Under the pieces are notes generated by a model, which saw nothing but the letters and a program-made list of their open reading frames with translations, made no database searches and was not told where the DNA came from. Positions 2,082 to 63,202 of a stretch of 64,000 bases of DNA are shown here, piece after piece; positions within the stretch are counted from its first letter, which is position 1, and the number at the start of each line of letters is the position of its first letter. Both the position numbers and the translations under genes were made by a program. The stretch is from Eledone cirrhosa (Eukaryota). The stretch lies in contig OZ024744.1 of assembly GCA_964016885.1 (NCBI GenBank), forward strand, positions 134,726,001 to 134,790,000. Reading direction: 5' to 3'.

Positions 2082-2298
2082 AACCCCAACTTAACTTAAC
2101 CCCAACTTAACTTAACCCCAACTTCACTCAACCCCAACGTAACTCAACCCCAACTTAACTTAACCCCAACTTCACTCAACCCCAACTTAACTTAACCCCA
2201 ACTTCACTCAACCCCAACTTAAGTCAACCCCAACTTAACTTAACCCCAACTTGACTTATCCCCAACTTAACTTAGCCCCAACTTAACTTAAGCCCAAA
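2082..2298 (-). repeat. Inverted satellite block 1, lineage A (CTTATCCCC subtype), 217 bp
   Basis: AACTTAACTTAACCCC units starting at GGGGTT|AACCCC and ending AAGCCCAAA|GTCGGGGTTGAG. Confidence 0.96.
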
Positions 2299-5200
2299 GT
2301 CGGGGTTGAGTTAAGTTGGCGTTAAATTAAGTTAGGCTTAACTTAAGTTGGGGGTAAGTTAAGTTGGGGGTAAGTTAAGTTGGGGTTAAGTTAAGTTGCG
2401 GTTAAGTTGGGGTTAAGTTAAGTTAGGGTTAAGTTAAGTTGGCGTTGAGTTAAGTTGGGGTTAATTAAGTGGTGGTTATGTTAAGTTGGGGTTAATTTAA
2501 ATTGGGGTGAAGTTAACTTTGTGGTTAAGTTAAGTTGGGGTTAAGTTAAGTTGGGGTTAAGTTGGTGTTGAGTTAAGTTGGGGTTGAGTGAAGTTGGGGT
2601 TAAGTTAAGTTGGGGTAAAGTTAAGTTGGGGTTAAGTTAAGTCGGGGTTAAGTTAAGTTGTGGTTGAGTTAAGTTGGGGTTAATTTAAGTTGGGGCTAAG
2701 TTAATTTGTGGTTAAGTTAAGTTGGGGCTAAGTTAAGTTGGGGCTAAGTTAAGTTGGGGCTAAGTTAAGTTGGGGTTAAGTTAAGTTGGGGTTAAGTTAA
2801 GTTGGGGTTAAGTTAAGTTGGTGTTAAGTTAAGTTGGGGCTAAGTTAAGTTGGGGCTGAGTTAAGTTAGGGCTGAGTTAAGTTTGGGTTAAGTTAAGTTG
2901 GGGTTGAGTTAAGTTGGGGTTAAGTTAAGTTGGGGTCAAGTTAAGTTGGGGTTAAGTTGGGGTTAATTTAAGTTAGGTTTAAGTTAAGTTGGGGTTAAGT
3001 TAAGTTGGGGTTAAGTTAAGTTGGGGTTAAGTTAAGTTGGGGTTAAGTTAAGTTGGGGTTAAGTTAATTTGTGGTTAAGTTAAGTTGGGGTTAAGTTAAG
3101 TTGGGGTTAAGTTAAGTTGGGGTTAAGTTAAGTCGGGGTTAAGTTAAGTTGGGGTTAAGTTAAGTTGGGGTTAATTTAAGTTGGGGTTAAGTTAAGTTGG
3201 GGTTAAGTTAAGTTGGGGTTAAGTTAAGTTGGGGATAATTTAAGTTGGGGTTAAGTTAAGTTTGGGTTTAAGTTAAGTTGGGGTTAAGTTAAGTTGGGGT
3301 TAAGTTAAGTTGGGGTTAAGTTAATTTGTGGTTAAGTTAAGTTGGGGTTAAGTTAAGTTGGGGTTGAGTTAAGTTGGGGCTGAGTTAATTTGGGGTTAAG
3401 TTAAGTTGGGGTTAAGTTGGGTTTAAGTTAAGTTGGGGTTAAATTAAGTTGGGGTTAAATTAAGTTGGGGTTAAGTTAAGTTGGGGGTAAGTTAAGTTGG
3501 GGGCAAGTTAAGTTGGGGTTAATTTAAGTTGGGGTTAAATTAAGTTGGGGTTACGTTAAGTTGGTGTTAAGTTAAGTTGGGGTTAATTTAAGTTGGGGTT
3601 AATTAAGTTGGGGTTAAGTTAAGTTGGGGTTAAGTTAAGTTGGGGTTAATTTAAGTTGGGGTTGAGTTAAGTTGGGGTTAAGTTAAGTTGGGGTTATATT
3701 AAGTTGGGGTTAAGTTAAGTTGGGGTTCAGTTAAGTTGGGGTTAAGTTAAGTTGGGGTTAAGTTAAGTTGAGGTTAAGTTAAGTTGGGGTTAAGTTAAGT
3801 TGGTGTTAAGTTAAGTTGGGGCTAAGTTAAGTTGGGGCTGAGTTAAGTTGGGGCTGAGTTAAGTTGGGGCTAAGTTAAGTTGGGGTTGAGTTAAGTTGGG
3901 GTTAATTTGGGGTTAAGTTAAGTTAGGTTTAAGTTAAGTTGGGGTTAAGTTAAGTTGGGGTTAAGTTAAGTTGGGGTTAAGTTAAGTTGGGGTTAAGTTA
4001 AGTTGGAGTTAAGTTAAGTTGGGGTTGAGTTAATTTGTGGTTAAGTTAAGTTGTGGTTAAGTTAAGTTGGGGTTAAGTTAAGTTGGGGTTAAGTTAAGTC
4101 GGTGTTAAGTTAAGTTGGGGTTAAGTTAAGTTGGGGTTAATTTAAGTTGGGGTTAAGTTAAGTTGGGGTTAAGTTAAGTCGGGGTTAAGTTAAGTTGGGG
4201 TTAAGTTAAGTTGGGGTTAATTTAAGTTGGGGTTAAGTTAAGTTGGGGTTAAGTTAAGTTGGGGTTAAGTTAAGTTGGGGTTAAGTTAAGTTGGGGATAA
4301 TTTAAGTTGGGGTTAAGTTAAGTTTGAGTTTAAGTTAAGTTGGGGTTAAGTTAAGTTGGGGTTAAGTTAAGTTGGGGTTAATTTAAGTTGGTTAGTTAAG
4401 TTGAGTTTAAGTTAAGTTGGGGTTAATTTAAGTTGGGGTTAAGTTAAGCTGGGGTTAAGTTAAGTTGGGGTTAAGTTAAGTTGGGGTTAATTTAAGTTGG
4501 GGTTAATTTAAGTCGGGGTTAAGTTAAGTTGTGGTTGAGTTAAGTTTGGGTTAATTTAAGTTGGGGCTAAGTTAATTTGTGGTTAAGTTAAGTTTGGGTT
4601 AAGTTAAGTTGGGGTTAAGTTAAGTTGGGGTTGAGTTAAGTTGGGGTTGAGTTAATTTGGGGTTAAATTAAGTTGGCGTTAAGTTAAGTTGGGTTTAAGT
4701 TAAGTTGGGGTTAAATTAAGTTGGGGTTAAATTAAGTTGGGGTTAAGTTAAGTTGGGGGTAAGTTAAGTTGGGGGCAAGTTAAGTTGGGGTTAATTTAAG
4801 TTGGGGTTAAATTAAGTTGGGGTTACGTTAAGTTGGTGTTAAGTTAAGTTGGGGTTAATTTAAGTTGGGGTTGAGTTAAGTTGGGGTTCAGTTAAGTTGG
4901 GGATAAGTTAAGTTGGGGTTAAGTTAAGTTGGGGTTAATTAAGTTGGGGTTGAGTTAAGTTGGGGTTGAGTTAAATTGGGGTTGAGTTAAGTTGGGGTTG
5001 AGTTAAGTTGGTGTTGAGTTAAGTTGGGGTTAAGTTAAGTTGGGGTTAAGTTAAGTTGCAGTTAAGTTAAGTTGAGGTTAAGTTAAGGTGCGGTTAAGTT
5101 AAGTTGAGGTTAAGTTAAGTTGGGGCTAAGTTAAGTTGGGGCTAAGTTAAGTTGGGGCTAAGTTAAGTTGGGGTTAAGTTACGTTGGGGTTAAGTTAAGT

Positions 5201-5492
5201 CGGGGTTAAGTTAAGTTGGGGTTAAGTTAAGTTGGGGTTAATTTAAGTTGGGGTTAAGTTATGTTGGGTTTAAGTTTAGTAGGGGTTAAGTTAAGTTGGG
5301 GTTAAGTTAAGTTGGGTTTAAGTTAAGTTGGGGTTAAGTTAAGTTGGGGTCAAGTTAAGTTGGGGTTAAGTTAAGTTGGTTAGTTAAGTTGAGTTTAAGT
5401 TAAGTTGGGGTTAATTTAAGTTGGGGTTAAGTTAAGTTGGGGTTAAGTTAAGTTGGAGTTAAGTTAAGTTGGGGTTAAGTTAAGTTGGGGTT

Positions 5493-5708
5493 AACCCCAA
5501 CTTAACTTAACCCCAACTTAACTTAACCCCAACTTCACTCAACCCAACGTAACTCAACGCCAACTTAACTTAACCCCAACTTCACTCAACCCCAACTTAA
5601 CTTAACCCCAACTTCACTCAACCCCAACTTAAGTCAACCCCAACTTAACTTAACCCCAACTTGACTTAACCCCAACTTAACTTAGCCCCAACTTAACTTA
5701 AGCCCAAA
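5493..5708 (-). repeat. Inverted block 2, lineage A (AACCCAACGT + AACGCC subtype), 216 bp
   Basis: Same junctions as block 1, with a 3-C monomer and the CAACGCCAAC variant. Confidence 0.96.
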
Positions 5709-8700
5709 GTCGGGGTTGAGTTAAGTTGGCGTTAAGTTAGGCTTAACTTAAGTTGGGGGTAAGTTAAGTTGGGGGTAAGTTAAGTTGGGGTTAAGTTAAG
5801 TTGCGGTTAAGTTGGGGTTAAGTTAAGTTAGGGTTAAGTTAAGTTGGCGTTGAGTTAAGTTGGGGTTAATTAAGTGGTGGTTATGTTAAGTTGGGGTTAA
5901 TTTAAATTGGGGTGAAGTTAACTTTGTGGTTAAGTTAAGTTGGGGTTAAGTTAAGTTGGGGTTAAGTTGGTGTTGAGTTAAGTTGGGGTTGAGTGAAGTT
6001 GGGGTTAAGTTAAGTTGGGGTAAAGTTAAGTTGGGGTTAAGTTAAGTCGGGGTTAAGTTAAGTTGTGGTTGAGTTAAGTTGGGGTTAATTTAAGTTGGGG
6101 CTAAGTTAATTTGTGGTTAAGTTAAGTTGGGGCTAAGTTAAGTTGGGGCTAAGTTAAGTTGGGGCTAAGTTAAGTTGGGGTTAAGTTAAGTTGGGGTTAA
6201 GTTAAGTTGGGGTTAAGTTAAGTTGGTGTTAAGTTAAGTTGGGGCTAAGTTAAGTTGGGGCTGAGTTAAGTTAGGGCTGAGTTAAGTTTGGGTTAAGTTA
6301 AGTTGGGGTTGAGTTAAGTTGGGGTTAAGTTAAGTTGGGGTCAAGTTAAGTTGGGGTTAAGTTGGGGTTAATTTAAGTTAGGTTTAAGTTAAGTTGGGGT
6401 TAAGTTAAGTTGGGGTTAAGTTAAGTTGGGGTTAAGTTAAGTTGGGGTTAAGTTAAGTTGGGGTTAAGTTAATTTGTGGTTAAGTTAAGTTGGGGTTAAG
6501 TTAAGTTGGGGTTAAGTTAAGTTGGGGTTAAGTTAAGTCGGGGTTAAGTTAAGTTGGGGTTAAGTTAAGTTGGGGTTAATTTAAGTTGGGGTTAAGTTAA
6601 GTTGGGGTTAAGTTAAGTTGGGGTTAAGTTAAGTTGGGGATAATTTAAGTTGGGGTTAAGTTAAGTTTGGGTTTAAGTTAAGTTGGGGTTAAGTTAAGTT
6701 GGGGTTAAGTTAAGTTGGGGTTAAGTTAATTTGTGGTTAAGTTAAGTTGGGGTTAAGTTAAGTTGGGGTTGAGTTAAGTTGGGGCTGAGTTAATTTGGGG
6801 TTAAGTTAAGTTGGGGTTAAGTTGGGTTTAAGTTAAGTTGGGGTTAAATTAAGTTGGGGTTAAATTAAGTTGGGGTTAAGTTAAGTTGGGGGTAAGTTAA
6901 GTTGGGGGCAAGTTAAGTTGGGGTTAATTTAAGTTGGGGTTAAATTAAGTTGGGGTTACGTTAAGTTGGTGTTAAGTTAAGTTGGGGTTAATTTAAGTTG
7001 GGGTTAATTAAGTTGGGGTTAAGTTAAGTTGGGGTTAAGTTAAGTTGGGGTTAATTTAAGTTGGGGTTGAGTTAAGTTGGGGTTAAGTTAAGTTGGGGTT
7101 ATATTAAGTTGGGGTTAAGTTAAGTTGGGGTTCAGTTAAGTTGGGGTTAAGTTAAGTTGGGGTTAAGTTAAGTTGAGGTTAAGTTAAGTTGGGGTTAAGT
7201 TAAGTTGGTGTTAAGTTAAGTTGGGGCTAAGTTAAGTTGGGGCTGAGTTAAGTTGGGGCTGAGTTAAGTTGGGGCTAAGTTAAGTTGGGGTTGAGTTAAG
7301 TTGGGGTTAATTTGGGGTTAAGTTAAGTTAGGTTTAAGTTAAGTTGGGGTTAAGTTAAGTTGGGGTTAAGTTAAGTTGGGGTTAAGTTAAGTTGGGGTTA
7401 AGTTAAGTTGGAGTTAAGTTAAGTTGGGGTTGAGTTAATTTGTGGTTAAGTTAAGTTGTGGTTAAGTTAAGTTGGGGTTAAGTTAAGTTGGGGTTAAGTT
7501 AAGTCGGTGTTAAGTTAAGTTGGGGTTAAGTTAAGTTGGGGTTAATTTAAGTTGGGGTTAAGTTAAGTTGGGGTTAAGTTAAGTTGGGGTTAAGTTAAGT
7601 CGGGGTTAAGTTAAGTTGGGGTTAAGTTAAGTTGGGGTTAATTTAAGTTGGGGTTAAGTTAAGTTGGGGTTAAGTTAAGTTGGGGTTAAGTTAAGTTGGG
7701 GTTAAGTTAAGTTGGGGATAATTTAAGTTGGGGTTAAGTTAAGTTTGAGTTTAAGTTAAGTTGGGGTTAAGTTAAGTTGGGGTTAAGTTAAGTTGGGGTT
7801 AATTTAAGTTGGTTAGTTAAGTTGAGTTTAAGTTAAGTTGGGGTTAATTTAAGTTGGGGTTAAGTTAAGCTGGGGTTAAGTTAAGTTGGGGTTAAGTTAA
7901 GTTGGGGTTAATTTAAGTTGGGGTTAATTTAAGTCGGGGTTAAGTTAAGTTGTGGTTGAGTTAAGTTTGGGTTAATTTAAGTTGGGGCTAAGTTAATTTG
8001 TGGTTAAGTTAAGTTTGGGTTAAGTTAAGTTGGGGTTAAGTTAAGTTGGGGTTGAGTTAAGTTGGGGTTGAGTTAATTTGGGGTTAAATTAAGTTGGCGT
8101 TAAGTTAAGTTGGGTTTAAGTTAAGTTGGGGTTAAATTAAGTTGGGGTTAAATTAAGTTGGGGTTAAGTTAAGTTGGGGGTAAGTTAAGTTGGGGGCAAG
8201 TTAAGTTGGGGTTAATTTAAGTTGGGGTTAAATTAAGTTGGGGTTACGTTAAGTTGGTGTTAAGTTAAGTTGGGGTTAATTTAAGTTGGGGTTGAGTTAA
8301 GTTGGGGTTCAGTTAAGTTGGGGATAAGTTAAGTTGGGGTTAAGTTAAGTTGGGGTTAATTAAGTTGGGGTTGAGTTAAGTTGGGGTTGAGTTAAATTGG
8401 GGTTGAGTTAAGTTGGGGTTGAGTTAAGTTGGTGTTGAGTTAAGTTGGGGTTAAGTTAAGTTGGGGTTAAGTTAAGTTGCAGTTAAGTTAAGTTGAGGTT
8501 AAGTTAAGGTGCGGTTAAGTTAAGTTGAGGTTAAGTTAAGTTGGGGCTAAGTTAAGTTGGGGCTAAGTTAAGTTGGGGCTAAGTTAAGTTGGGGTTAAGT
8601 TACGTTGGGGTTAAGTTAAGTCGGGGTTAAGTTAAGTTGGGGTTAAGTTAAGTTGGGGTTAATTTAAGTTGGGGTTAAGTTATGTTGGGTTTAAGTTTAG

Positions 8701-8913
8701 TAGGGGTTAAGTTAAGTTGGGGTTAAGTTAAGTTGGGTTTAAGTTAAGTTGGGGTTAAGTTAAGTTGGGGTCAAGTTAAGTTGGGGTTAAGTTAAGTTGG
8801 TTAGTTAAGTTGAGTTTAAGTTAAGTTGGGGTTAATTTAAGTTGGGGTTAAGTTAAGTTGGGGTTAAGTTAAGTTGGAGTTAAGTTAAGTTGGGGTTAAG
8901 TTAAGTTGGGGTT

Positions 8914-9129
8914 AACCCCAACTTAACTTAACCCCAACTTAACTTAACCCCAACTTCACTCAACCCAACGTAACTCAACGCCAACTTAACTTAACCCCAA
9001 CTTCACTCAACCCCAACTTAACTTAACCCCAACTTCACTCAACCCCAACTTAAGTCAACCCCAACTTAACTTAACCCCAACTTGACTTAACCCCAACTTA
9101 ACTTAGCCCCAACTTAACTTAAGCCCAAA
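8914..9129 (-). repeat. Inverted block 3, lineage A (AACGCC subtype), 216 bp
   Basis: Carries the same diagnostic variants as block 2. Confidence 0.96.
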
Positions 9130-10959
9130 GTCGGGGTTGAGTTAAGTTGGCGTTAAGTTAGGCTTAACTTAAGTTGGGGGTAAGTTAAGTTGGGGGTAAG
9201 TTAAGTTGGGGTTAAGTTAAGTTGCGGTTAAGTTGGGGTTAAGTTAAGATAGGGTTAAGTTAAGTTGGCGTTGAGTTAAGTTGGGGTTAATTAAGTGGTG
9301 GTTATGTTAAGTTGGGGTTAATTTAAATTGGGGTGAAGTTAACTTTGTGGTTAAGTTAAGTTGGGGTTAAGTTAAGTTGGGGTTAAGTTGGGGTTGAGTT
9401 AAGTTGGGGTTGAGTGAAGTTGGGGTTAAGTTAAGTTGGGGTAAAGTTAAGTTGGGGTTAAGTTAAGTCGGGGTTAAGTTAAGTTGTGGTTGAGTTAAGT
9501 TGGGGTTAATTTAAGTTGGGGCTAAGTTAATTTGTGGTTAAGTTAAGTTGGGGTTAAGTTAAGTTGGGGTTAAGTTAAGTTGGGGTTAAGTTAAGTTGCA
9601 GTTAAGTTAAGTTGAGGTTAAGTTAAGTTGGGGCTAAGTTAAGTTGGGGCTAAGTTAAGTTGGGGCTAAGTTAAGTTGGGGTTAAGTTAAGTTGGGGTTA
9701 AGTTAAGTTGGGGTTAAGTTAAGTTGGTGTTAAGTTAAGTTGGGGCTAAGTTAAGTTGGGGTTAAGTTAAGTTGGGGTTAAGTTAAGTTGGGGTTAAGTT
9801 AATTTGTGGTTAAGTTAAGTTGGGGTTAAGTTAAGTTGGGGTTAAGTTAAGTTGGGGTTAAGTTAAGTCGGGGTTAAGTTAAGTTGGGGTTAAGTTAAGT
9901 TGGGGTTAATTTAAGTTGGGGTTAAGTTAAGTTGGGGTTAAGTTAAGTTGGGGTTAAGTTAAGTTGGGGATAATTTAAGTTGGGGTTAAGTTAAGTTTGG
10001 GTTTAAGTTAAGTTGGGGTTAAGTTAAGTTGGGGTTAAGTTAAGTTGGGGTTAAGTTAATTTGTGGTTAAGTTAAGTTGGGGTTAAGTTAAGTTGGGGTT
10101 GAGTTAAGTTGGGGCTGAGTTAATTTGGGGTTAAGTTAAGTTGGGGTTAAGTTAAGTTGGGTTTAAGTTAAGTTGGGGTTAAATTAAGTTGGGGTTAAAT
10201 TAAGTTGGGGTTAAGTTAAGTTGGGGGTAAGTTAAGTTGGGGGCAAGTTAAGTTGGGGTTAATTTAAGTTGGGGTTAAATTAAGTTGGGGTTACGTTAAG
10301 TTGGTGTTAAGTTAAGTTGGGGTTAATTTAAGTTGGGGTTGAGTTAAGTTGGGGTTCAGTTAAGTTGGGGATAAGTTAAGTTGGGGTTAAGTTAAGTTGG
10401 GGTTAATTAAGTTGGGGTTGAGTTAAGTTGGGGTTGAGTTAAATTGGGGTTGAGTTAAGTTGGGGTTGAGTTAAGTTGGTGTTGAGTTAAGTTGGGGTTA
10501 AGTTAAGTTGGGGTTAAGTTAAGTTGCAGTTAAGTTAAGTTGAGGTTAAGTTAAGGTGCGGTTAAGTTAAGTTGAGGTTAAGTTAAGTTGGGGCTAAGTT
10601 AAGTTGGGGCTAAGTTAAGTTGGGGCTAAGTTAAGTTGGGGTTAAGTTACGTTGGGGTTAAGTTAAGTCGGGGTTAAGTTAAGTTGGGGTTAAGTTAAGT
10701 TGGGGTTAATTTAAGTTGGGGTTAAGTTATGTTGGGTTTAAGTTTAGTAGGGGTTAAGTTAAGTTGGGGTTAAGTTAAGTTGGGTTTAAGTTAAGTTGGG
10801 GTTAAGTTAAGTTGGGGTCAAGTTAAGTTGGGGTTAAGTTAAGTTGGTTAGTTAAGTTGAGTTTAAGTTAAGTTGGGGTTAATTTAATTGGGGTTAAGTT
10901 AAGTTGGGGTTAAGTTAAGTTGGAGTTAAGTTAAGTTGGGGTTAAGTTAAGTTGGGGTT

Positions 10960-11175
10960 AACCCCAACTTAACTTAACCCCAACTTAACTTAACCCCAAC
11001 TTCACTCAACCCAACGTAACTCAACGCCAACTTAACTTAACCCCAACTTCACTCAACCCCAACTTAACTTAACCCCAACTTCACTCAACCCCAACTTAAG
11101 TCAACCCCAACTTAACTTAACCCCAACTTGACTTAACCCCAACTTAACTTAGCCCCAACTTAACTTAAGCCCAAA
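10960..11175 (-). repeat. Inverted block 4, lineage A (AACGCC subtype), 216 bp
   Basis: Carries the same diagnostic variants as blocks 2 and 3. Confidence 0.96.
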
Positions 11176-13300
11176 GTCGGGGTTGAGTTAAGTTGGCGTT
11201 AAGTTAGGCTTAACTTAAGTTGGGGGTAAGTTAAGTTGGGGGTAAGTTAAGTTGGGGTTAAGTTAAGTTGCGGTTAAGTTGGGGTTAAGTTAAGATAGGG
11301 TTAAGTTAAGTTGGCGTTGAGTTAAGTTGGGGTTAATTAAGTGGTGGTTATGTTAAGTTGGGGTTAATTTAAATTGGGGTGAAGTTAACTTTGTGGTTAA
11401 GTTAAGTTGGGGTTAAGTTAAGTTGGGGTTAAGTTGGGGTTGAGTTAAGTTGGGGTTGAGTGAAGTTGGGGTTAAGTTAAGTTGGGGTAAAGTTAAGTTG
11501 GGGTTAAGTTAAGTCGGGGTTAAGTTAAGTTGTGGTTGAGTTAAGTTGGGGTTAATTTAAGTTGGGGCTAAGTTAATTTGTGGTTAAGTTAAGTTGGGGT
11601 TAAGTTAAGTTGGGGTTAAGTTAAGTTGGGGTTAAGTTAAGTTGCAGTTAAGTTAAGTTGAGGTTAAGTTAAGTTGGGGCTAAGTTAAGTTGGGGCTAAG
11701 TTAAGTTGGGGCTAAGTTAAGTTGGGGTTAAGTTAAGTTGGGGTTAAGTTAAGTTGGGGTTAAGTTAAGTTGGTGTTAAGTTAAGTTGGGGCTAAGTTAA
11801 GTTGGGGTTAAGTTAAGTTGGGGTTAAGTTAAGTTGGGGTTAAGTTAATTTGTGGTTAAGTTAAGTTGGGGTTAAGTTAAGTTGGGGTTAAGTTAAGTTG
11901 GGGTTAAGTTAAGTCGGGGTTAAGTTAAGTTGGGGTTAAGTTAAGTTGGGGTTAATTTAAGTTGGGGTTAAGTTAAGTTGGGGTTAAGTTAAGTTGGGGT
12001 TAAGTTAAGTTGGGGATAATTTAAGTTGGGGTTAAGTTAAGTTTGGGTTTAAGTTAAGTTGGGGTTAAGTTAAGTTGGGGTTAAGTTAAGTTGGGGTTAA
12101 GTTAATTTGTGGTTAAGTTAAGTTGGGGTTAAGTTAAGTTGGGGTTGAGTTAAGTTGGGGCTGAGTTAATTTGGGGTTAAGTTAAGTTGGGGTTAAGTTA
12201 AGTTGGGTTTAAGTTAAGTTGGGGTTAAATTAAGTTGGGGTTAAATTAAGTTGGGGTTAAGTTAAGTTGGGGGTAAGTTAAGTTGGGGGCAAGTTAAGTT
12301 GGGGTTCAGTTAAGTTGGGGTTAAATTAAGTTGGGGTTACGTTAAGTTGGTGTTAAGTTAAGTTGGGGTTAATTTAAGTTGGGGCTAATTAAGTTGGGGT
12401 TAAGTTAAGTTGGGGTTAAGTTAAGTTGGGGTTAATTTAAGTTGGGGTTGAGTTAAGTTGGGGTTAAGTTAAGTTGGGGTTATATTAAGTTGGGGTTAAG
12501 TTAAGTTGGGGTTCAGTTAAGTTGGGGTTAAGTTAAGTTGGGGTTAAGTTAAGTTGAGGTTAAGTTAAGTTGGGGTTAAGTTAAGTTGGTGTTAAGTTAA
12601 GTTGGGGCTAAGTTAAGTTGGGGCTGAGTTAAGTTGGGGCTGAGTTAAGTTGGGGCTAAGTTAAGTTGGGGTTGAGTTAAGTTGGGGTTAAGTTGGGGTT
12701 AAGTTAAGTTAGGTTTAAGTTAAGTTGGGGTTAAGTTAAGTTGGGGTTAAGTTAAGTTGGGGTTAAGTTAAGTTGGGGTTAAGTTAAGTTGGGGTTAAGT
12801 TAAGTTGGGGTTGAGTTAATTTGGGGCTGAGTTAAGTTGGGGTTGAGTTAAGTTGGTGTTGAGTTAAGTTGGGGTTAAGTTAAGTTGGGGTTAAGTTAAG
12901 TTGCAGTTAAGTTAAGTTGAGGTTAGGTTAAGGTGCGGTTAAGTTAAGTTGGGGTTAAGTTAAGTTGGGGCTAAGTTAAGTTGGGGCTAAGTTAAGTTGG
13001 GGCTAAGTTAAGTTGGGGTTAAGTTACGTTGGGGTTAAGTTAAGTCGGGGTTAAGTTAAGTTGGGGTTAAGTTAAGTTGGGGTTAATTTAAGTTGGGGTT
13101 AAGTTAAGTTGGGGTTAAGTTAAGTTGGGGTTAAGTTAAGTTGGGGTTAAGTTGGGTTTAAGTTAAGTTGGGGTTAAGTTAAGTTGGGGTCAAGTTAAGT
13201 TGGGGTTAAGTTAAGTTGGTTAGTTAAGTTGAGTTTAAGTTAAGTTGGGGTTAATTTAAGTTGGGGTTAAGTTAAGTTGGGGTTAAGTTAAGTTGGGGTT

Positions 13301-52500: not shown

Positions 52501-53049
52501 TTGGGGTTGAGTTAAGTTGGGGTTCAGTTAAATTGGGGTTGAATTAAGTTGGGGTTGAGTTAAGATGGTGTTGAGTTAAGTTGGGGTTAAGTTAAGTTGG
52601 GGTTAAGTTAAGTTGCAGTTAAGTTAAGTTGAGGTTAAGTTAAGGTGCGGTTAAGTTAAGTTGAGGTTAAGTTAAGTTGGGGCTAACTTAAGTTGGGGCT
52701 AAGTTAAGTTGGGGCTAAGTTAAGTTGGGGTTAAGTTACGTTGGGGTTAAGTTAAGTCGGGGTTAAGTTAAGTTGGGGTTAAGTTAAGTTGGGGTTAATT
52801 TAAGTTGGGGTTAAGTTAAGTTGGGGTTAAGTTTAGTAGGGGTTAAGTTAAGTTGGGGTTAAGTTAAGTTGGGTTTAAGTTAAGTTGGGGTTAAGTTAAG
52901 TTGGGGTCAAGTTAAGTTGGGGTTAAGTTAAGTTGGTTAGTTAAGTTCAGTTTAAGTTAAGTTGGGGTTAATTTAAGTTGGGGTTAAGTTAAGTTGGGGT
53001 TAAGTTAAGTTGGAGTTAAGTTAAGTTGGGGTTAAGTTAAGTTGGGGTT

Positions 53050-53265
53050 AACCCCAACTTAACTTAACCCCAACTTAACTTAACCCCAACTTCACTCAAC
53101 CCAACGTAACTCAACCCCAACTTAACTTAACCCCAACTTCACTCAACCCCAACTTAACTTAACCCCAACTTCACTCAACCCCAACTTAAGTCAACCCCAA
53201 CTTAACTTAACCCCAACTTGACTTAACCCCAACTTAACTTAGCCCCAACTTAACTTAAGCCCAAA
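53050..53265 (-). repeat. Inverted block 23, lineage A (AACCCAACGT), 216 bp
   Basis: Standard junctions and the 3-C monomer. Confidence 0.96.
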
Positions 53266-55491
53266 GTCGGGGTTGAGTTAAGTTGGCGTTAAGTTAAGTT
53301 AGGCTTAACTTAAGTTGGGGGTAAGTTAAGTTGGGGGTAAGTTAAGTTGGGGTTAAGTTAAGTTGCGGTTAAGTTGGGGTTAAGTTAAGATAGGGTTAAG
53401 TTAAGTTGGCGTTGAGTTAAGTTGGGGTTAATTAAGTGGTGGTTATGTTAAGTTGGGGTTAATTTAAATTGGGGTGAAGTTAACTTTGTGGTTAAGTTAA
53501 GTTGGGGTTAAGTTAAGTTGGGGTTAAGTTGGGGTTGAGTTAAGTTGGGGTTGAGTGAAGTTGGGGTTAAGTTAAGTTGGGGTAAAGTTAAGTTGGGGTT
53601 AAGTTAAGTCGGGGTTAAGTTAAGTTGTGGTTGAGTTAAGTTGGGGTTAATTTAAGTTGGGGCTAAGTTAATTTGTGGTTAAGTTAAGTTGGGGTTAAGT
53701 TAAGTTGGGGTTAAGTTAAGTTGGGGTTAAGTTAAGTTGCAGTTAAGTTAAGTTGAGGTTAAGTTAAGTTGGGGTTAAGTTAAGTTGGGGTTAAGTTAAG
53801 TTGGGGCTAAGTTAAGTTGGGGCTAAGTTAAGTTGGGGCTAAGTTAAGTTGGGGTTAAGTTAAGTTGGGGTTAAGTTAAGTTGGGGTTAAGTTAAGTTGG
53901 TGTTAAGTTAAGTTGGGGCTAAGTTAAGTTGGGGTTAAGTTAAGTTGGGGTTAAGTTAAGTTGGGGTTAATTTAATTTGTGGTTAAGTTAAGTTGGGGTT
54001 AAGTTAAGTTGGGGTTAAGTTAAGTTGGGGTTAAGTTAAGTCGGGGTTAAGTTAAGTTGGGGTTAAGTTAAGTTGGGGTTAATTTAAGTTAGGGTTAAGT
54101 TAATTTGGGGTTAGGTTAAGTTGGGGTTAAGTTAAGTTGGGGATAATTTAAGTTGGGGTTAAGTTAAGTTTGGGTTTAAGTTAAGTTGGGGTTAAGTTAA
54201 GTTGGGGTTAAGTTAAGTTGGGGTTAAGTTAATTTGTGGTTAAGTTAAGTTGGGGTTAAGTTAAGTTGGGGTTGAGTTAAGTTGGGGTTAAGTTAAGTTG
54301 GGGTTAAGTTAAGTTGGGGTTAAGTTAAGTTGGGGTTAAGTTAATTTGTGGTTAAGTTAAGTTGGGGTTAAGTTAAGTTGGGGTTAAGTTTAGTTGGGTT
54401 TAAGTTAAGTTGGGGTTAAATTAAGTTGGGGTTAAATTAAGTTGGGGTTAAGTTAAGTTGGGGGTAAGTTAAGTTGGGGGCAAGTTAAGTTGGGGTTAAT
54501 TTAAGTTGGGGTTAAATTAAGTTGGGGTTACGTTAAGTTGGTGTTAAGTTAAGTTGGGGTTAATTTAAGTTGGGGTTAATTAAGTTGGGGTTAAGTTAAG
54601 TTGGGGTTAAGTTAAGTTGGGGTTAATTTAAGTTGGGGTTGAGTTAAGTTGGGGTTAAGTTAAGTTGGGGTTATATTAAGTTGGGGTTAAGTTAAGTTGG
54701 GGTTCAGTTAAGTTGGGGTTAAGTTAAGTTGGGGTTAAGTTAAGTTGAGGTTAAGTTAAGTTGGGGTTAAGTTAAGTTGGTGTTAAGTTAAGTTGGGGCT
54801 AAGTTAAGTTGGGGCTGAGTTAAGTTGGGGCTGAGTTAAGTTGGGGCTAAGTTAAGTTGGGGTTGAGTTAAGTTGGGGTTAAGTTGGGGTTAAGTTAAGT
54901 TAGGTTTAAGTTAAGTTGGGGTTAAGTTAAGTTGGGGTTAAGTTAAGTTGGGGTTAAGTTAAGTTGGGGTTAAGTTAAGTTGGGGTTAAGTTAAGTTGGG
55001 GTTGAGTTAATTTGGGGCTGAGTTAAGTTGGGGTTGAGTTAAGTTGGTGTTGAGTTAAGTTGGGGTTAAGTTAAGTTGGGGTTAAGTTAAGTTGCAGTTA
55101 AGTTAAGTTGAGGTTAAGTTAAGGTGCGGTTAAGTTAAGTTGGGGTTAAGTTAAGTTGGGGCTAAGTTAAGTTGGGGCTAAGTTAAGTTGGGGCTAAGTT
55201 AAGTTGGGGTTAAGTTACGTTGGGGTTAAGTTAAGTCGGGGTTAAGTTAAGTTGGGGTTAAGTTAAGTTGGGGTTAATTTAAGTTGGGGTTAAGTTAAGT
55301 TGGGGTTAAGTTAAGTTGGGGTTAAGTTAAGTTGGGGTTAAGTTGGGTTTAAGTTAAGTTGGGGTTAAGTTAAGTTGGGGTCAAGTTAAGTTGGGGTTAA
55401 GTTAAGTTGGTTAGTTAAGTTGAGTTTAAGTTAAGTTGGGGTTAATTTAAGTTGGGGTTAAGTTAAGTTGGGGTTAAGTTAAGTTGGGGTT

Positions 55492-55708
55492 AACCCCAAC
55501 TTAAGTTAACCCCAACTTAACTTAATACCAACTTCATTCAACCCCAACGTAACTCAACCCCAACTTAACTTAACCCCAACTTCACTCAACCCCAACTTAA
55601 CTTAACCCCAACTTCACTCAATCCCAACTTAAGTCAACCCCAACTTAACTTAACCCCAACTTGACTTAACCCCAACTTAACTTAGCCCCAACTTAACTTA
55701 AGCCAAAA
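55492..55708 (-). repeat. Inverted block 24, lineage B, 217 bp
   Basis: Matches block 12, including CAATCCC and GCCAAAA. Confidence 0.96.
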
Positions 55709-58700
55709 GTCGGGGTTAAGTTAAGTTGGCGTTAAGTTAAGTTAGGCTTAACTTAAGTTGGGGGTAAGTTAAGTTGGGGGTAAGTTAAGTTGGGGTTAAG
55801 TTAAGTTGCGGTTAAGTTGGGGTTAAGTTAAGTTAGGGTTAAGTTAAGTTGGCGTTGAGTTAAGTTGGGGTTAATTAAGTGGTGGTTATGTTAAGTTGGG
55901 GTTAATTTAAATTGGGGTGAAGTTAACTTTGTGGTTAAGTTAAGTTGGGGTTAAGTTAAGTTGGGGTTAAGTTGGGGTTGAGTTAAGTTGGGGTTGAGTG
56001 AAGTTGGGGTTAAGTTAAGTTGGGGTAAAGTTAAATTGGGGTTAAGTTAAGTCGGGGTTAAGTTAAGTTGTGGTTGAGTTAAGTTGGGGTTAATTTAAGT
56101 TGGGGCTAAGTTAATTTGTGGTTAAGTTAAGTTGGGGTTAAGTTAAGTTGGGGTTAAGTTAAGTTGGGGTTAAGTTAAGTTGCAGTTAAGTTAAGTTGAG
56201 GTTAAGTTAAGTTGGGGTTAAGTTAAGTTGGGGTTAAGTTAAGTTGGGGCTAAGTTAAGTTGGGGCTAAGTTAAGTTGGGGCTAAGTTAAGTTGGGGTTA
56301 AGTTAAGTTGGGGTTAAGTTAAGTTGGGGTTAAGTTAAGTTGGTGTTAAGTTAAGTTGGGGCTAAGTTAAGTTGGGGCTGAGTTAAGTTGGGGCTGAGTT
56401 AAGTTGGGGTTAAGTTAATTTGTGGTTAAGTTAAGTTGGGGTTAAGTTAAGTTGGGGTTGCGTTAAGTTGGGGCTGAGTTAATTTGGGGTTAAGTTAAGT
56501 TGGGGTTAAGTTGGGTTTAAGTTAAGTTGGGGTTAAATTAAGTTGGGGTTAAATTAAGTTGGGGTTAAGTTAAGTTGGGGGTAAGTTAAGTTGGGGGCAA
56601 GTTAAGTTGGGGTTAATTTAAGTTGGGGTTAAATTAAGTTGGGGTTACGTTACGTTGGTGTTAAGTTAAGTTGGGGTTAATTTAAGTTGGGGTTAAGTTA
56701 AGTTGGGGTCAAGTTAAGTTGGGGTTAAGTTGGGGTTAATTTAAGTTAGGTTTAAGTTAAGTTGGGGTTAAGTTAAGTTGGGGTTAAGTTAAGTTGGGGT
56801 TAAGTTAAGTTGGGGTTAAGTTGGGGTTAAGTTAATTGGTGGTTAAGTTAAGTTGGGGTTAAGTTAAGTTGGGGTTAAGTTAAGTTGGGGTTAAGTTAAG
56901 TCGGGGTTAAGTTAAGTTGGGGTTAAGTTAAGTTGGGGTTAATTTAAGTTGGGGTTAAGTTAAGTTGGGGTTAAGTTAAGTTGGGGTTAAGTTAAGTTGG
57001 GGATAATTTAAGTTGGGGTTAAGTTAAGTTTGGGTTTAAGTTAAGTTGGGGTTAAGTTAAGTTGGGGTTAAGTTAAGTTGGGGTTAAGTTAATTTGTGGT
57101 TAAGTTAAGTTGGGGTTAAGTTAAGTTGGGGTTGAGTTAAGTTGGGGCTGAGTTAATTTGGGGTTAAGTTAAGTTGGGGTTAAGTTAAGTTGGGTTTAAG
57201 TTAAGTTGGGGTTAAATTAAGTTGGGGTTAAATTAAGTTGGGGTTAAGTTAAGTTGGGGGTAAGTTAAGTTGGGGGCAAGTTAAGTTGGGGTTAATTTAA
57301 GTTGGGGTTAAATTAAGTTGGGGTTACGTTAAGTTGGTGTTAAGTTAAGTTGGGGTTAATTTAAGTTGGGGTTAATTAAGTTGGGGTTAAGTTAAGTTGG
57401 GGTTAAGTTAAGTTGGGGTTAATTTAAGTTGGGGTTGAGTTAAGTTGGGGTTAAGTTAAGTTGGGTTTATATTAAGTTGGGGTTAAGTTAAGTTGGGGTT
57501 CAGTTAAGTTGGGGTTAAGTTAAGTTGGGGTTAAGTTAAGTTGAGGTTAAGTTAAGTTGGGGTTAAGTTAAGTTGGTGTTAAGTTAAGTTGGGGCTAAGT
57601 TAAGTTGGGGCTGAGTTAAGTTGGGGCTGAGTTAAGTTGGGGCTAAGTTAAGTTGGGTTTGAGTTAAGTTGGGGTTAAGTTGGGGTTAAGTTAAGTTAGG
57701 TTTAAGTTAAGTTGGGGTTAAGTTAAGTTGGGGTTAAGTTAAGTTGGGGTTAAGTTAAGTTGGGGTTAAGTTAAGTTGGGGTTAAGTTAAGTTGGGGTTG
57801 AGTTAATTTGTGGTTAAGTTAAGTTGTGCTTAAGTTAAGTTGGGGTTAAGTTAAGTTGGGGTTAAGTTAAGTCGGGGTTAAGTTAAGTTGGGGTTAAGTT
57901 AAGTTGGGGTTAATTTAAGTTGGGGTTAAGTTAAGTTGGGGTTAAGTTAAGTTGGGGTTAAGTTAAGTCGGGGTTAAGTTAAGTTGGGGTTAAGTTAAGT
58001 TGGGGTTAATTTAAGTTGGCGTTAAGTTAAGTTGGGGTTAAGTTAAGTTGGGGTTAAGTTAAGTTGGGGTTAAGTTAAGTTGGGGATAATTTAAGTTGGG
58101 GTTAAGTTAAGTTTGAGTTTAAGTTAAGTTGGGGTTAAGTTAAGTTGGGGTTAAGTTAAGTTGGGGTTAATTTAAGTTGGTTAGTTAAGTTGAGTTTAAG
58201 TTAAGTTGGGGTTAATTTAAGTTGGGGTTAAGTTAAGCTGGGGTTAAGTTAAGTTGGGGTTAAGTTAAGTTGGGGTTAATTTAAGTTGGGGTTAATTTAA
58301 GTCGGGGTTAAGTTAAGTTGTGGTTGAGTTAAGTTTGGGTTAATTTAAGTTGGGGCTAAGTTAATTTGTGGTTAAGTTAAGTTTGGGTTAAGTTAAGTTT
58401 GGGTTAAGTTAAGTTGGGGTTGAGTTAAGTTGGGGTTGAGTTAATTTGGGGTTAAGTTAAGTTGGGGTTAAGTTAAGTTGGGTTTAAGTTAAGTTGGGGT
58501 TAAATTAAGTTGGGGTTAAATTAAGTTGGGGTTAAGTTAAGTTGGGGGTAAGTTAAGTTGGGGGCAAGTTAAGTTGGGGTTAATTTAATTTGGGGTTAAA
58601 TTAAGTTGGGGTTACGTTAAGTTGGTGTTAAGTTAAGTTCGGGTTAATTTAAGTTGGGGTTGAGTTAAGTTGGGGTTCAGTTAAGTTGGGGATAAGTTAA

Positions 58701-61573
58701 GTTGGGGTTAAGTTAAGTTGGGGTTAATTAAGTTGGGGTTAAGTTAAGTTGGGGTTAAGTTAAGTTGGGGCTAAGTTAAGTTGGGGCTGAGTTAAGTTGG
58801 GGCTGAGTTAAGTTGGGGTTAAGTTAAGTTGGGGTTGAGTTAAGTTGGGGTTAAGTTAAGTTGGGGTCAAGTTAAGTTGGGGTTAAGTTGGGGTTAAGTT
58901 AAGTTAGGTTTAAGTTAAGTTGGGGTTAAGTTAAGTTGGGGTTAAGTTAAGTTGGGGTTAAGTTAAGTTGGGGTTAAGTTAAGTTGGGGTTAAGTTAATT
59001 TGTGGTTTATTTAAGTTGGGGTTAATTTAAGTTGGGGTTAAGTTAAGTTGGGGTTAAGTTAAGTCGGGGTTAAGTTAAGTTGGGGTTAAGTTAAGTTGGG
59101 GTTAAGTTAAGTTGGGGTTAAGTTAAGTTGGGGTTAAGTTAAGTTGGGGTTAAGTTAAGTTGGGGTTAAGTTAAGTTGAGGTTAAGTTAAGTTGGGGTTA
59201 AATTAAGTTGGGGTTAAGTTAAGTTGGGGTTAAGTTAAGTTGGGGTTAAGTTAAGTTGGGGATAAGTTAAGTTGGGGATAATTTAAGTTGGGGTTAAGTT
59301 AAGTTGGGTTTAAGTTAAGTTGGGGTTAAGTTAAGTTGGGGATAAGTTAAGTTGGGGTTAAGTTAAGTTGGGGTTAAGTTAAGTTGGGGCTAAGTTAAGT
59401 TGGGGCTGAGTTAAGTTGGGGTTAAGTTAAGTTGGGGTTAAGTTAAGTTGGGGTTAATTTAAGTTGGGGTTTATTTAAGTTGGGGTTAAGTTAAGTTGGG
59501 GTTCAGTTAAGTTGGGGTTAAGTTAAGTTGGGGTTAAGATGGGGTTAAATTAAGTTGGGGTTAAGTTAAGTTTGAGTTTAAGTTAAGTTGGGGTTAAGTT
59601 AAGTTGGGGTTAAGTTAAGTTGCGATTAAGTTAAGTTGGTTAGTTAAGTTGAGTTTAAGTTAAGTTGGGGTTAATTTAAGTTGGGGTTAAGTTAAGCTGG
59701 GGTTAAGTTAAGTTGGGGTTAAGTTAAGTTGGGGTTAATTTAAGTTGGGGTTAATTTAAGTCGGGGTTAAGTTAAGTTGTGGTTGAGTTAAGTTGGGGTT
59801 AATTTAAGTTGGGGCTAAGTTAATTTGTGGTTAAGTTAAGTTGGGGTTAAGTTAAGTTGGGGTTAAGTTAAGTTGGGGTTGAGTTAAGTTGGGGTTGAGT
59901 TAATTTGGGGTTAAGTTAAGTTGGGGTTAAGTTAAGTTGGGTTTAAGTTAAGTTGGGGTTAAATTAAGTTGGGGTTAAATTAAGTTGGGGTTAAGTTAAG
60001 TTGGGGGTAAGTTAAGTTGGGGGCAAGTTAAGTTGGGGTTAATTTAAGTTGGGGTTAAATTAAGTTGGGGTTACGTTAAGTTGGTGTTAAGTTAAGTTGG
60101 GGTTAATTTAAGTTGGGGTTGAGTTAAGTTGGGGTTCAGTTAAGTTGGGGATAAGTTAAGTTGGGGTTAAGTTAAGTTGGGGTTAATTAAGTTGGGGTTA
60201 AGTTAAGTTGGGGTTAAGTTAAGTTGGGGCTAAATTAAGTTGGGGCTGAGTTAAGTTGGGGCTGAGTTAAGTTGGGGTTAAGTTAAGTTGGGGTTGAGTT
60301 AAGTTGGGGTTAAGATAAGTTGGGGTCAAGTTAAGTTGGGTTTAAGTTGGGGTTAAGTTAAGTTAGGTTTAAGTTAAGTTGGGGTTAAGTTAAGTTGGGG
60401 TTAAGTTAATTTGTGGTTTAGTTAAGTTTGGGTTAAGTTAAGTTGGGGTTAAGTTAAGTTGGGGTTAAGTTAAGTCGTGGTTAAGTTAAGTTGGGGTTAA
60501 GTTAAGTTGGAGTTAAGTTAAGTTGGGGTTAAGTTAAGTTGTGGTTAAGTTAAGTTGGGGTTAAGTTAAGTTGGGGTTAAGTTAAGTTGAGGTTAAGTTA
60601 AGTTGGGGTTAAATTAAGTTGGGGTTAAGTTAAGTTGGGGTTAAGTTAAGTTGGGGATAAGTTAAGTTGGGGATAATTTAAGTTGGGGTTAAGTTAAGTT
60701 GGGGTTAAGTTAAGTTGGGGTTAAGTTAAGTTGGGGTTAAGTTAAGTTGGGGTTAAGTTAAGTTGGGGTTAAGTTAAGTTGGGGCTAAGTTAAGTTGGAG
60801 CTGAGTTAAGTTGGGGTTAAGTTAAGTTGGGGGTTAAGTTAAGTTGGGGTTAATTTAAGTTGGGGTTTATTTAAGTTGGGGTTAAGTTAAGTTGGGGTTC
60901 AGTTAAGTTGGGGTTAAGTTAAGTTGGGGTTAAGATGGGGTTAAATTAAGTTGGGGTTAAGTTAAGTTGGGGTTAAGTTAAGTTGGGGTTAAGTTAAGTT
61001 GGGGTTAAGTTAAGTCGGGGTTAAGTTAAGTCGGGGTTAAGTTAAGTTAGGGTTCAGTTAAGTTGGGGTTAAGTTAAGTTGGGGTTGAGTTAAGTTGGGG
61101 TTGAGTTAAATTGGGGTTGAGTTAAGTTGGGGTTGAGTTAAGTTGGTGTTGAGTTAAGTTGGGGTTAAGTTAAGTTGGGGTTAAGTTAAGTTGCAGTTAA
61201 GTTAAGTTGAGGTTAAGTTAAGGTGCGGTTAAGTTAAGTTGGGGTTAAGTTAAGTTGGGGCTAAGTTAAGTTGGGGCTAAGTTAAGTTGGGGCTAAGTTA
61301 AGTTGGGGTTAAGTTACGTTGGGGTTAAGTGAAGTCGGGGTTAAGTTAAGTTGGGGTTAAGTTAAGTTGGGGTTAATTTAAGTTGGGGTTAAGTTAAGTT
61401 GGGGTTAAGTTAAGTTGGGGTTAAGTTAAGTTGGGGTTAAGTTGGGTTTAAGTTAAGTTGGGGTTAAGTTAAGTTGGGGTCAAGTTAAGTTGGGGTTAAG
61501 TTAAGTTGGTTAGTTAAGTTGAGTTTAAGTTAAGTTGGGGTTAATTTAAGTTGGGGTTAAGTTAAGTTGGGGT

Positions 61574-61763
61574 AACTTAATACCAACTTCACTCAACCCC
61601 AACGTAACTCAACCCCAACTTAACTTAACCCCAACTTCACTCAACCCCAACTTAACTTAACCCCAACTTCACTCAATCCCAACTTAAGTCAACCCCAACT
61701 TAACTTAACCCCAACTTGACTTAACCCCAACTTAACTTAGCCCCAACTTAACTTAAGCCCAAA
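61574..61763 (-). repeat. Inverted block 25, lineage B with deleted centre, 190 bp
   Basis: Same GGGGT|AACTTAATACC junction as block 14, 27,000 bp away. Confidence 0.95.
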
Positions 61764-62985
61764 GTCGGGGTTAAGTTAAGTTGGCGTTAAGTTAAGTTAG
61801 GCTTAACTTAATTTGGGGGTAAGTTAAGTTGGGGGTAAGTTAAGTTGGGGTTAAGTTAAGTTGCGGTTAAGTTGGGGTTAAGTTAAGTTAGGGTTAAGTT
61901 AAGTTGGCGTTGAGTTAAGTTGGGGTTAATTAAGTGGTGGTTATGTTAAGTTGGGGTTAATTTAAATTGGGGTGAAGTTAACTTTGTGGTTAAGTTAAGT
62001 TGGGGTTAAGTTGGGGTTGAGTTAAGTTGGGGTTGAGTGAAGTTGGGGTTAAGTTAAGTTGGGGTAAAGTTAAGTTGGGGTTAAGTTAAGTTGTGGTTGA
62101 GTTAAGTTGGGGTTAATTTAAGTTGGGGCTAAGTTAATTTGTGGTTAAGTTAAGTTGGGGTTAAGTTAAGTTGGGGTTAAGTTAAGTTGGGGTTAAGTTA
62201 AGTTGCAGTTAAGTTAAGTTGAGGTTAAGTTAAGTTGGGGTTAAGTTAAGTTGGGGTTAAGTTAAGTTGGGGTTCAGTTAAGTTGGGGTTAAGTTAAGTT
62301 GGGGTTAAGATGGGGTTAAATTAAGTTGGGGTTAAGTTAAGTTGGGGTTAATTTAAGTCGGGGTTAAGTTAAGTCGGGGTTAAGTTAAGTTAGGGTTCAG
62401 TTAAGTTGGGGTTAAGTTAAGTTGGGGTTGAGTTAAGTTGGGGTTGAGTTAAATTGGGGTTGAGTTAAGTTGGGGTTGAGTTAAGTTGGTGTTGAGTTAA
62501 TTGGGGTTAAGTTAAGTTGGGGTTAAGTTAAGTTGCAGTTAAGTTAAGTTGAGGTTAAGTTAAGGTGCGGTTAAGTTAAGTTGGGGTTAAGTTAAGTTGG
62601 GGCTAAGTTAAGTTGGGGCTAAGTTAAGTTGGGGCTAAGTTAAGTTGGGGTTAAGTTACGTTGGGGTTAATTTAAGTCGGGGTTAAGTTAAGTTGGGGTT
62701 AAGTTAAGTTGGGGTTAATTTAAGTTGGGGTTAAGTTAAGTTGGGGTTAAGTTTAGTTGGGGTTAAGTTAAGTTGGGGTTAAGTTAAGTTGGGTTTAAGT
62801 TAAGTTGGGGTTAAGTTAAGTTGGGGTTAAGTTAAGTTGGGGTTAAGTTAAGTTGGGGTTAAGTTAAGTTGGGGTTAAGTTAAGTTGGTTAGTTAAGTTG
62901 AGTTTAAGTTAAGTTGGGGTTAATTTAAGTTGGGGTTAAGTTAAGTTGGGGTTAAGTTAAGTTGGGGTTAAGTTAAGTTGGGGTT

Positions 62986-63202
62986 AACCCCAACTTAACT
63001 TAACCCCAACTTAACTTAACCCCAACTTCACTCAACCCCAACGTAACTCAACCCCAACTTAACTTAACCCCAACTTCACTCAACCCCAACTTAACTTAAC
63101 CCCAACTTCACTCAACCCCAACTTAAGTCAACCCCAACTTAACTTAACCCCAACTTGACTTAACCCCAACTTAACTTAGCCCCAACTTAACTTAAGCCCA
63201 AA
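62986..63202 (-). repeat. Inverted block 26, lineage A, 217 bp
   Basis: Counterpart of block 15. Confidence 0.96.

What the first reader, a model, noticed from the sequence alone, without database searches (positions are those of the whole stretch)
2082..63202. Satellite punctuated by 26 copies of one stereotyped ~217-bp inverted block
Seen: every 0.6-6.1 kb the array flips strand for about 13.5 monomers and flips back. All 26 blocks share the right junction and 24 share the left one. They also share an internal order of variant monomers (CTTCACTC, CGTAACTC, ..., AAGTCAACC, TTGACTT, TTAGCCCC). Inference: a single ancestral micro-inversion was built into the higher-order repeat and amplified, rather than 26 independent events. 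Established: satellites are normally head-to-tail with sparse polarity switches, and long palindromes tend to be unstable. Retention at about one per 2.5 kb is therefore unusual. The block may drive amplification or be functional, for example as a cruciform platform of the kind proposed for dyad-rich centromeric satellites. Passive hitch-hiking is the null model.
Basis: partly seen in the sequence, partly recalled or inferred. Interest (0 to 1): 0.8.

Follow-up and report, generated by a model that had tools for sequence, protein, structure and literature searches.

The report
Inverted cassette hitch-hiking in a satellite
A short back-to-front stretch of a 16-base satellite repeat occurs at least 833 times in this genome, while large parts of the same array lack it, so it is likely a passenger copied along with its neighbours rather than a working element.

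Summary
The window has 26 inverted blocks in a 16-bp satellite; 26 share the right junction and 24 the left; 20 are 215-216 bp and six are shorter. They descend from one inversion. The right junction occurs at least 833 times in the genome, all 100 listed hits on contig C28, and longer 250-450-bp forms elsewhere in the ~8.4-Mb array share the same junction type. The passenger model fits best. The family is missing from 31 of 62 array samples. Its right-flank module was amplified without it at similar density, and sister repeat lineages beside the window are block-free. Block-bearing samples are not more recently duplicated (p=0.11). Two other, independent micro-inversions (30 and 3 copies) are inverted copies of their own left flanks, so inversions likely arise repeatedly by template switching at the monomer's TTAA dyads and drift to different copy numbers. 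Against this: the block module is the most intact one locally, and 9 of 24 left junctions are perfect 86-bp palindromes. Chromatin was not testable. Closest known: Tribolium satellites with inverted subunits and conserved inversion sites. The scan's notes held no matching earlier finding.

The parts
1..64000 (+). 16-bp satellite array (monomer GTTGGGGTTAAGTTAA) organised as an irregular, modular higher-order repeat
2082..2297 (-). inverted block 1, 216 bp
2039..2124 (.). perfect 86-bp palindrome (43-bp arms) centred on the left junction of block 1; predicted DNA hairpin -48.5 kcal/mol for the 90 bases around it
2298..2600 (+). conserved forward right-flank module (K, F, B, C marker monomers) that follows every block; its K marker also occurs without a block elsewhere in the array
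5493..5707 (-). inverted block 2, 215 bp
8914..9128 (-). inverted block 3, 215 bp
10960..11174 (-). inverted block 4, 215 bp
13301..13388 (-). inverted block 5, 88 bp (internal deletion)
13914..14129 (-). inverted block 6, 216 bp
15421..15635 (-). inverted block 7, 215 bp
17747..17834 (-). inverted block 8, 88 bp (internal deletion)
18328..18543 (-). inverted block 9, 216 bp
21733..21947 (-). inverted block 10, 215 bp
24722..24936 (-). inverted block 11, 215 bp
27100..27315 (-). inverted block 12, 216 bp
28556..28755 (-). inverted block 13, 200 bp
34573..34762 (-). inverted block 14, 190 bp, palindrome centre deleted
35987..36202 (-). inverted block 15, 216 bp
37126..37341 (-). inverted block 16, 216 bp
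38788..39003 (-). inverted block 17, 216 bp
39639..39854 (-). inverted block 18, 216 bp
43371..43538 (-). inverted block 19, 168 bp
44795..45010 (-). inverted block 20, 216 bp
47915..48130 (-). inverted block 21, 216 bp
49371..49586 (-). inverted block 22, 216 bp
53050..53264 (-). inverted block 23, 215 bp
55492..55707 (-). inverted block 24, 216 bp
61573..61762 (-). inverted block 25, 190 bp, duplicate of block 14
62986..63201 (-). inverted block 26, 216 bp
27548..37001 (+). first copy of a recent ~9.4-kb (or longer) segmental duplication, offset ~26.95 kb
54501..64000 (+). second copy of that duplication (99.4% identical; both ends touch the limits of the stretch aligned)

Best explanation
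The block is one old micro-inversion, likely made by replication template switching at the monomer's TTAA dyad, that is embedded in a module of an irregular higher-order repeat and was likely copied passively with that module. Shown: all copies share junctions and variant order; longer 250-450-bp forms exist; the family fills some megabase domains and is absent from others; two further independent micro-inversions exist at 30 and 3 copies. Inferred: (1) origin by template switch or fold-back, argued from the palindromic left junction and from families 2 and 3 being inverted copies of their own left flanks; (2) spread by ordinary unequal exchange and segmental duplication; (3) stereotypy because inverted monomers cannot pair in register with forward ones, so exchanges carry or drop the block whole, and it shortens only by internal block-to-block deletion.
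For: Junction count 806+/27- genome-wide. The family is absent from 31 of 62 C28 array samples (sampling was uneven and denser in block-rich parts). It is absent from all 17 samples at 127.0-130.24 Mb, from 133.8-134.53 Mb (6 samples) and from 135.05-135.31 Mb (4 samples). The K right-flank marker is listed about every 3.5 kb at 128.87-129.02 Mb with no block of either family (L001, L069). Block-free neighbours L013, L014, L074, L094 and L095 share 20-24% of exact 100-mers with the window, as much as some block-bearing samples. Local redundancy is not higher with blocks: median 0.35 (n=22) vs 0.47 (n=21), p=0.11. Forward marker monomers reach the same 24-30 copies in the window. Singleton substitutions in 160-bp stretches over 84 kb: block 7, right flank 10, four other usable modules 3-8. 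Family 2 (30 copies, 128.57-129.60 Mb) and family 3 (3 copies, C18) have their best forward match in their own left flank.
Against: Within 84 kb the block module is the most intact: left-to-right junction 36 of 36 and right junction-to-C marker 35 of 36, against 19 of 23 and 13 of 33 for two forward intervals of similar size. It is also the most abundant single-context module (36 copies vs 13-33). Perfect palindrome arms average 28 bp against 19 for random flanks (0 of 1000 shuffles reached it), though inherited flanks make that control lenient. The forward source of the main block is only weakly traced (best score 24.0 vs 13.2-21.0 in 8 shuffles each for two long forms). The redundancy samples are not independent and the test has low power. 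No chromatin data.
Confidence: 0.76

Rival explanations
1. The palindromic left junction stalls forks or is cleaved as a cruciform, and repair duplicates or retains block-bearing units, so the block biases its own amplification.
For: The block module is the most intact and most abundant single-context module in 84 kb. Homology between copies ends a median 8 monomers left of the left junction. 9 of 24 junctions have 43-bp perfect arms.
Against: Block-free sister lineages expanded over about 0.75 Mb and are at least as redundant (0.61-0.71 for L013, L014, L074, L078). Other markers show equally short extensions of 0-8 monomers. Families 2 and 3 also have dyad junctions but only 30 and 3 copies.
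Confidence: 0.13
2. The blocks are selected structural elements, for example cruciform platforms for centromeric or heterochromatin proteins.
For: A predicted hairpin of -85.7 kcal/mol over 200 bases at the left junction vs -13.0 for forward-only array. Junction type kept across forms of 88-450 bp. The densest domain (130.25-132.79 Mb) includes AT-rich satellite islands. Tribolium papers propose such a role for conserved inversion sites.
Against: All 100 listed junction hits are on one contig, none on C1-C27. An estimated 84% of the genome's 57,644 exact 39-mer hits fall in the C28 array, so this is not a repeat shared by all chromosomes. Arms are freely eroded (2-43 bp) and one lineage lost the palindrome centre. 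The block is not more conserved than its flank.
Confidence: 0.08
3. The blocks are assembly or read fold-back artefacts.
For: No long read was examined. Raw RAD-seq reads from another study covered the right junction thinly (about 2-8x at 2288-2335).
Against: The blocks carry variant monomers absent from their flanks, subfamily-specific substitutions and deletions that vary by domain over megabases, and are inherited through a 9.4-kb duplication. A contig of run X6 bridges the right junction at word depth 950.
Confidence: 0.03

Closest known systems
Tribolium satellites with inverted subunits inside the repeat unit (T. madens TmSat2/MAD2, T. brevicornis major satellite, T. audax TAUD2; passages read in PMC13081366 and PMC12581902)
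   Same: Inverted copies of the basic subunit are built into a higher-order unit and amplified with it, giving many identical dyad junctions.
   Different: Those units have fixed length (704 bp, 1061 bp) with inverted segments of 300-700 bp, and span the centromeric regions of all chromosomes. Here the monomer is 16 bp, the unit is irregular (0.6-6.1 kb), about 8% of it is inverted, and the family was seen on one contig only.
Tribolium macro-dyad symmetries with conserved inversion sites (TmSat1 INV_1a/1b, 2044 and 3486 copies; TfSat01, six inversion types; same papers)
   Same: Hundreds to thousands of near-identical polarity-switch junctions in a satellite, with predicted long-stem hairpins and no demonstrated function.
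   Different: There the inverted subarrays are kilobases long, tend to symmetry and occur on several chromosomes. Here each switch is reversed after about 216 bp, and half of the array has none.
Template-switch inverted duplications (ODIRA model, PMC10766183, abstract read)
   Same: Inverted segments with junctions at short pre-existing inverted repeats; families 2 and 3 copy their adjacent flank.
   Different: ODIRA describes kilobase-scale triplications around an origin, through an extrachromosomal intermediate. Here the segments are 150-450 bp, origin dependence is untested, and the main block's right junction has only about 1 base of overlap.
Dyad-rich centromeric satellites (Kasinathan and Henikoff 2018, PMC5889037, abstract read)
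   Same: Dyad symmetry predicted to form non-B DNA.
   Different: That model concerns <10-bp dyads in functional centromeric repeats. No centromere evidence exists here, and the satellite is concentrated on one contig.

Membership tests
Higher-order satellite with inverted subunits (TmSat2 type) | inverted part derives from the same basic repeat and is amplified inside a larger unit | tested here: met
Higher-order satellite with inverted subunits (TmSat2 type) | fixed-length unit that is largely one long dyad | tested here: not met
   spacing 581-6081 bp; blocks of at most 216 bp
Tribolium macro-dyad symmetry | highly conserved inversion sites in many copies | tested here: met
   833 right-junction and about 760 left-junction hits
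Tribolium macro-dyad symmetry | kilobase-long, roughly symmetric inverted subarrays | tested here: not met
   inverted islands of 88-450 bp between kilobases of forward array
Tribolium macro-dyad symmetry | same inversion sites on several non-homologous chromosomes | tested here: inconclusive
   no hit on C1-C27 and none in the C18 or C2 samples, but only the first 100 of 833 hits were listed, so later contigs were not seen
Template-switch inverted duplication (ODIRA-like) | junction at a short pre-existing inverted repeat | tested here: met
   left junction centred on the palindromic TTAA; families 2 and 3 switch at TTAA dyads at both ends; the main right junction has about 1 base of overlap
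Template-switch inverted duplication (ODIRA-like) | inverted segment is a copy of adjacent sequence | tested here: inconclusive
   met by position for families 2 and 3 (best hits among 31,849 monomers are their own left flanks, though order shuffles reached equal scores); weak and non-adjacent for the main family
Template-switch inverted duplication (ODIRA-like) | origin dependence and hairpin-capped intermediate | not testable with these tools
   needs experiments
Dyad-rich centromeric satellite | predicted stable non-B structure | tested here: met
   -85.7 vs -13.0 kcal/mol for 200-base strands; single-strand folding only
Dyad-rich centromeric satellite | CENP-A occupancy | not testable with these tools
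   no chromatin data available
Dyad-rich centromeric satellite | repeat present on most chromosomes | tested here: inconclusive
   seen on C2, C18 and C28; C28 is estimated to hold about 48,000 of 57,644 exact 39-mer hits; the other contigs were not listed

The most novel reading that the evidence does not exclude
The block-dense domain (C28 130.25-132.79 Mb, about one long palindrome per 3 kb around AT-rich satellite islands) is this chromosome's centromere core. A single micro-inversion was selected, or drove its own spread, as a periodic cruciform platform, and block-free sister domains of the same satellite serve as a built-in control.
Probability: 0.08. Interest if true: 0.75.

Novelty: new variant of a known kind. 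Interest (0 to 1): 0.3.

Why it matters
As a passenger it is a clean record of satellite turnover. Three independent micro-inversions in one satellite stand at 3, 30 and at least 833 copies, and perfect palindromes up to 86 bp persist through repeated duplication. It also warns that conserved inversion junctions in satellites, read as a hint of function in Tribolium, can arise from descent alone. The array offers matched domains with and without the dyad, so one CENP-A or ssDNA experiment could test the dyad-centromere idea directly.

Tried and rejected
Literature search for six rotations of the monomer found one irrelevant paper. Searches on inverted blocks in satellites found the Tribolium work as the only close case; no supplements were read. 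Twenty-six independent inversions: rejected, since junctions and variant order are shared. Clean reciprocal in-place inversion: the two junctions do not restore in-register monomers when read back (inference from the sequence). Main block as an inverted copy of its present flanks: not seen in the monomer strings. Overall substitution rate of the block (0.041): discarded, because short deletion forms misalign; only singleton counts were used, and the Z-module row was dropped because its pattern was not specific. Junction in other individuals or species: RAD-seq runs X9-X11 and contigs of organisms A-C were laid; they hold the satellite, but no listed piece from them crosses a junction, so this is inconclusive. 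The idea that the 0.56-Mb reversed domain is a crossover between a block and a forward monomer: the right end fits, but the left end is a 200-N gap, so it is unresolved; it is not a mirror duplication. The organism was not determined.
Full report
Observation. The window is a single array of a 16-bp monomer, 4041 copies. It contains 26 reverse-strand blocks at spacings of 581-6081 bp. All 26 share the right junction. Twenty-four share a left junction centred on the palindromic TTAA, and two share a version with that centre deleted. Twenty blocks are 215-216 bp; six are 88, 88, 168, 190, 190 and 200 bp. The two 190-bp copies lie in a 99.4%-identical duplication, window 27548-37001 and 54501-64000, so they are one event. 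The C-rich heptamer CCCCAAC occurs 282 times inside blocks and never outside, so chance is excluded.

Reality of the sequence. A 68-bp contig of run X6 covers window 2263-2330 across the right junction with 2 differences at word depth 950; X6 may be the assembly's own sample. RAD-seq reads of another study covered the junction too thinly to judge. No long read was examined. The blocks carry variant monomers that are absent from their flanks, and subfamily changes that sort by domain over megabases; fold-back artefacts would not produce that.

Context in the window. Written as monomer strings, the array is an irregular higher-order repeat of recurring modules. Many forward marker monomers occur 24-30 times, as often as the block. 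Every block is followed by the same forward module of about 300 bp.

Context in the genome. The window lies at G000:C28:134.726-134.790 Mb. Sampling places the array at about 126.95-135.35 Mb of a 136.5-Mb contig. A degenerate right-junction pattern has 806 forward and 27 reverse hits; the 100 listed are all on C28. The left-junction pattern gives about 760 sites. Longer forms with the same junction type exist: about 400-440 bp at 131.2-131.8 Mb and 250-360 bp (one of 450) at 132.0-132.8 Mb. The window's form is therefore likely a shortened descendant (inference).

Where the family is missing. It was found in 31 of 62 array samples; one further sample with no satellite was dropped, and sampling was denser in block-rich parts. 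It was absent from all samples at 127.0-130.24, 133.8-134.53 and 135.05-135.31 Mb. It was also absent from the C18 and C2 samples. From sample densities, C28 holds roughly 48,000 of the genome's 57,644 exact 39-mer hits, so the satellite is not spread evenly over the chromosomes.

Tests of passenger against drive or function. (1) The K marker of the right-flank module is listed about every 3.5 kb at 128.87-129.02 Mb, where neither block family has a junction; L001 shows the module in purely forward context. (2) Block-free neighbours share 20-24% of exact 100-mers with the window and are at least as redundant. (3) Local redundancy in 6-kb samples was 0.35 with blocks (n=22, one of them family 2) and 0.47 without (n=21), p=0.11. 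Samples with under 5.7 kb of satellite, the C18 and 124.6-Mb samples and the window's own chunks were left out, and the samples are not independent. (4) Singleton substitutions per 160 bp were 7 in the block, 10 in the right flank and 3-8 in other modules.

Results against the passenger reading. In 84 kb the block module is the most intact (36 of 36; right junction to C marker 35 of 36) compared with 19 of 23 and 13 of 33 for two forward intervals. It is also the most abundant single-context module. The forward-only half of the module is just as intact, so the inversion itself need not be the cause. Perfect palindrome arms are longer than random flanks would give (mean 28 vs 19 bp; 9 of 24 at 43 bp), and the left junction can fold into a strong hairpin in silico. 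Shared descent from a fold-back explains this, but arm-to-arm correction or selection is not excluded.

Origin. A search for reverse-to-forward switches at natural dyads found two further families. Family 2 has 30 copies at 128.57-129.60 Mb and family 3 has three on C18. In both, the best forward match among 31,849 monomers is the block's own left flank, with rare variants in mirrored order; order shuffles reached equal scores, so the evidence is position, not score. [quoted passage not shown] For the main family the forward source is only weakly traced, to a module that survives in the array (score 24.0 vs 13.2-21.0 in shuffles). Stereotyped retention follows from geometry (inference): inverted monomers cannot align with forward ones, so unequal exchange moves the block whole and shortens it only internally.

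Comparison with what is known. Tribolium satellites have inverted subunits within units, and thousands of conserved inversion sites on many chromosomes. The authors state that function is untested and that conservation could reflect how the repeats spread (passages read in PMC13081366 and PMC12581902). The dyad-centromere model concerns short dyads in functional centromeric repeats (PMC5889037, abstract read). PMC5932611 (passages read) notes that unequal exchange can organise structural variants into higher-order repeats. Eight searches found no description of this monomer or of short inverted islands in a 16-bp satellite; supplements were not read. The scan's notes held nothing on this genome and nothing matching elsewhere.

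Verdict. The feature is real and has a single origin, and it most likely rides as a neutral passenger (0.76). It is a variant of a known kind. Interest is 0.3, mainly because the array gives matched domains with and without the dyad for a direct chromatin test.

Noticed in passing
G000:C28:128.57-129.60 Mb (L002, L067, L070): A second, independent ~230-bp inverted family with 30 copies; it is an inverted copy of its own left flank.
   Followed up: yes
G000:C18:10.129-10.189 Mb (L060, L061): A third, ~150-bp inverted family with 3 copies in a separate array of the same 16-mer on C18 (satellite sampled at 9.90-10.31 Mb); also an inverted copy of its left flank.
   Followed up: yes
G000:C28:132.795-133.355 Mb (L058, L059, L011, L076, L092, L108): A 0.56-Mb reversed domain. 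Its right end passes through a block's right junction and two block monomers before running on forward; its left end is a 200-N gap with degenerate sequence. It may be a block-mediated large inversion or an assembly switch.
   Followed up: partly
G000:C2:209.196-209.61 Mb (L040-L044): A composite satellite with a ~520-bp unit: about 250 bp of the 16-mer plus about 270 bp of unrelated sequence, near the middle of a 416-Mb contig and next to an AT-rich satellite.
   Followed up: partly
L065:7839-7883 and L083:2845-2889 (C28 ~124.69 and 124.80 Mb): Histone 3' stem-loops (Rfam RF00032) lie about 1 kb from short tracts of the 16-mer, which adjoin sequence resembling by eye the C2 270-bp insert. The satellite may have been seeded from such a spacer tract; no histone ORF was identified in L083 or L065.
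   Followed up: partly
G000:C28:124.60-124.69 Mb (L064, L065, L085): A ~90-kb reversed patch of the block-bearing array, of the 132.0-132.8-Mb subfamily, bounded on one side by a 200-N gap; possibly a misplaced contig.
   Followed up: partly
G000:C28:132.1-132.8 Mb (L010, L053-L057): Islands of an AT-rich satellite interrupt the array; a similar repeat flanks the C2 composite array. GC-poor gaps in L067, L068 and L070 were not inspected.
   Followed up: no
G000:C28:124.56-124.60 Mb (L084, L085): A diverged G-rich satellite with longer units (TCTAAG-containing) abuts the 16-mer patch; it may be a relative of the 16-mer.
   Followed up: no
G000:C28:130.4747-130.4748 Mb (L066): One block has lost its normal right junction and rejoins the forward array at a TTAA dyad inside the K monomer.
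   Followed up: partly
G000:C28:135.6 Mb and 124.0 Mb (L018, L023): An unrelated ~41-bp satellite at 135.6 Mb; a reverse-strand 16-mer of it is the commonest word in the 124.0-Mb sample.
   Followed up: no
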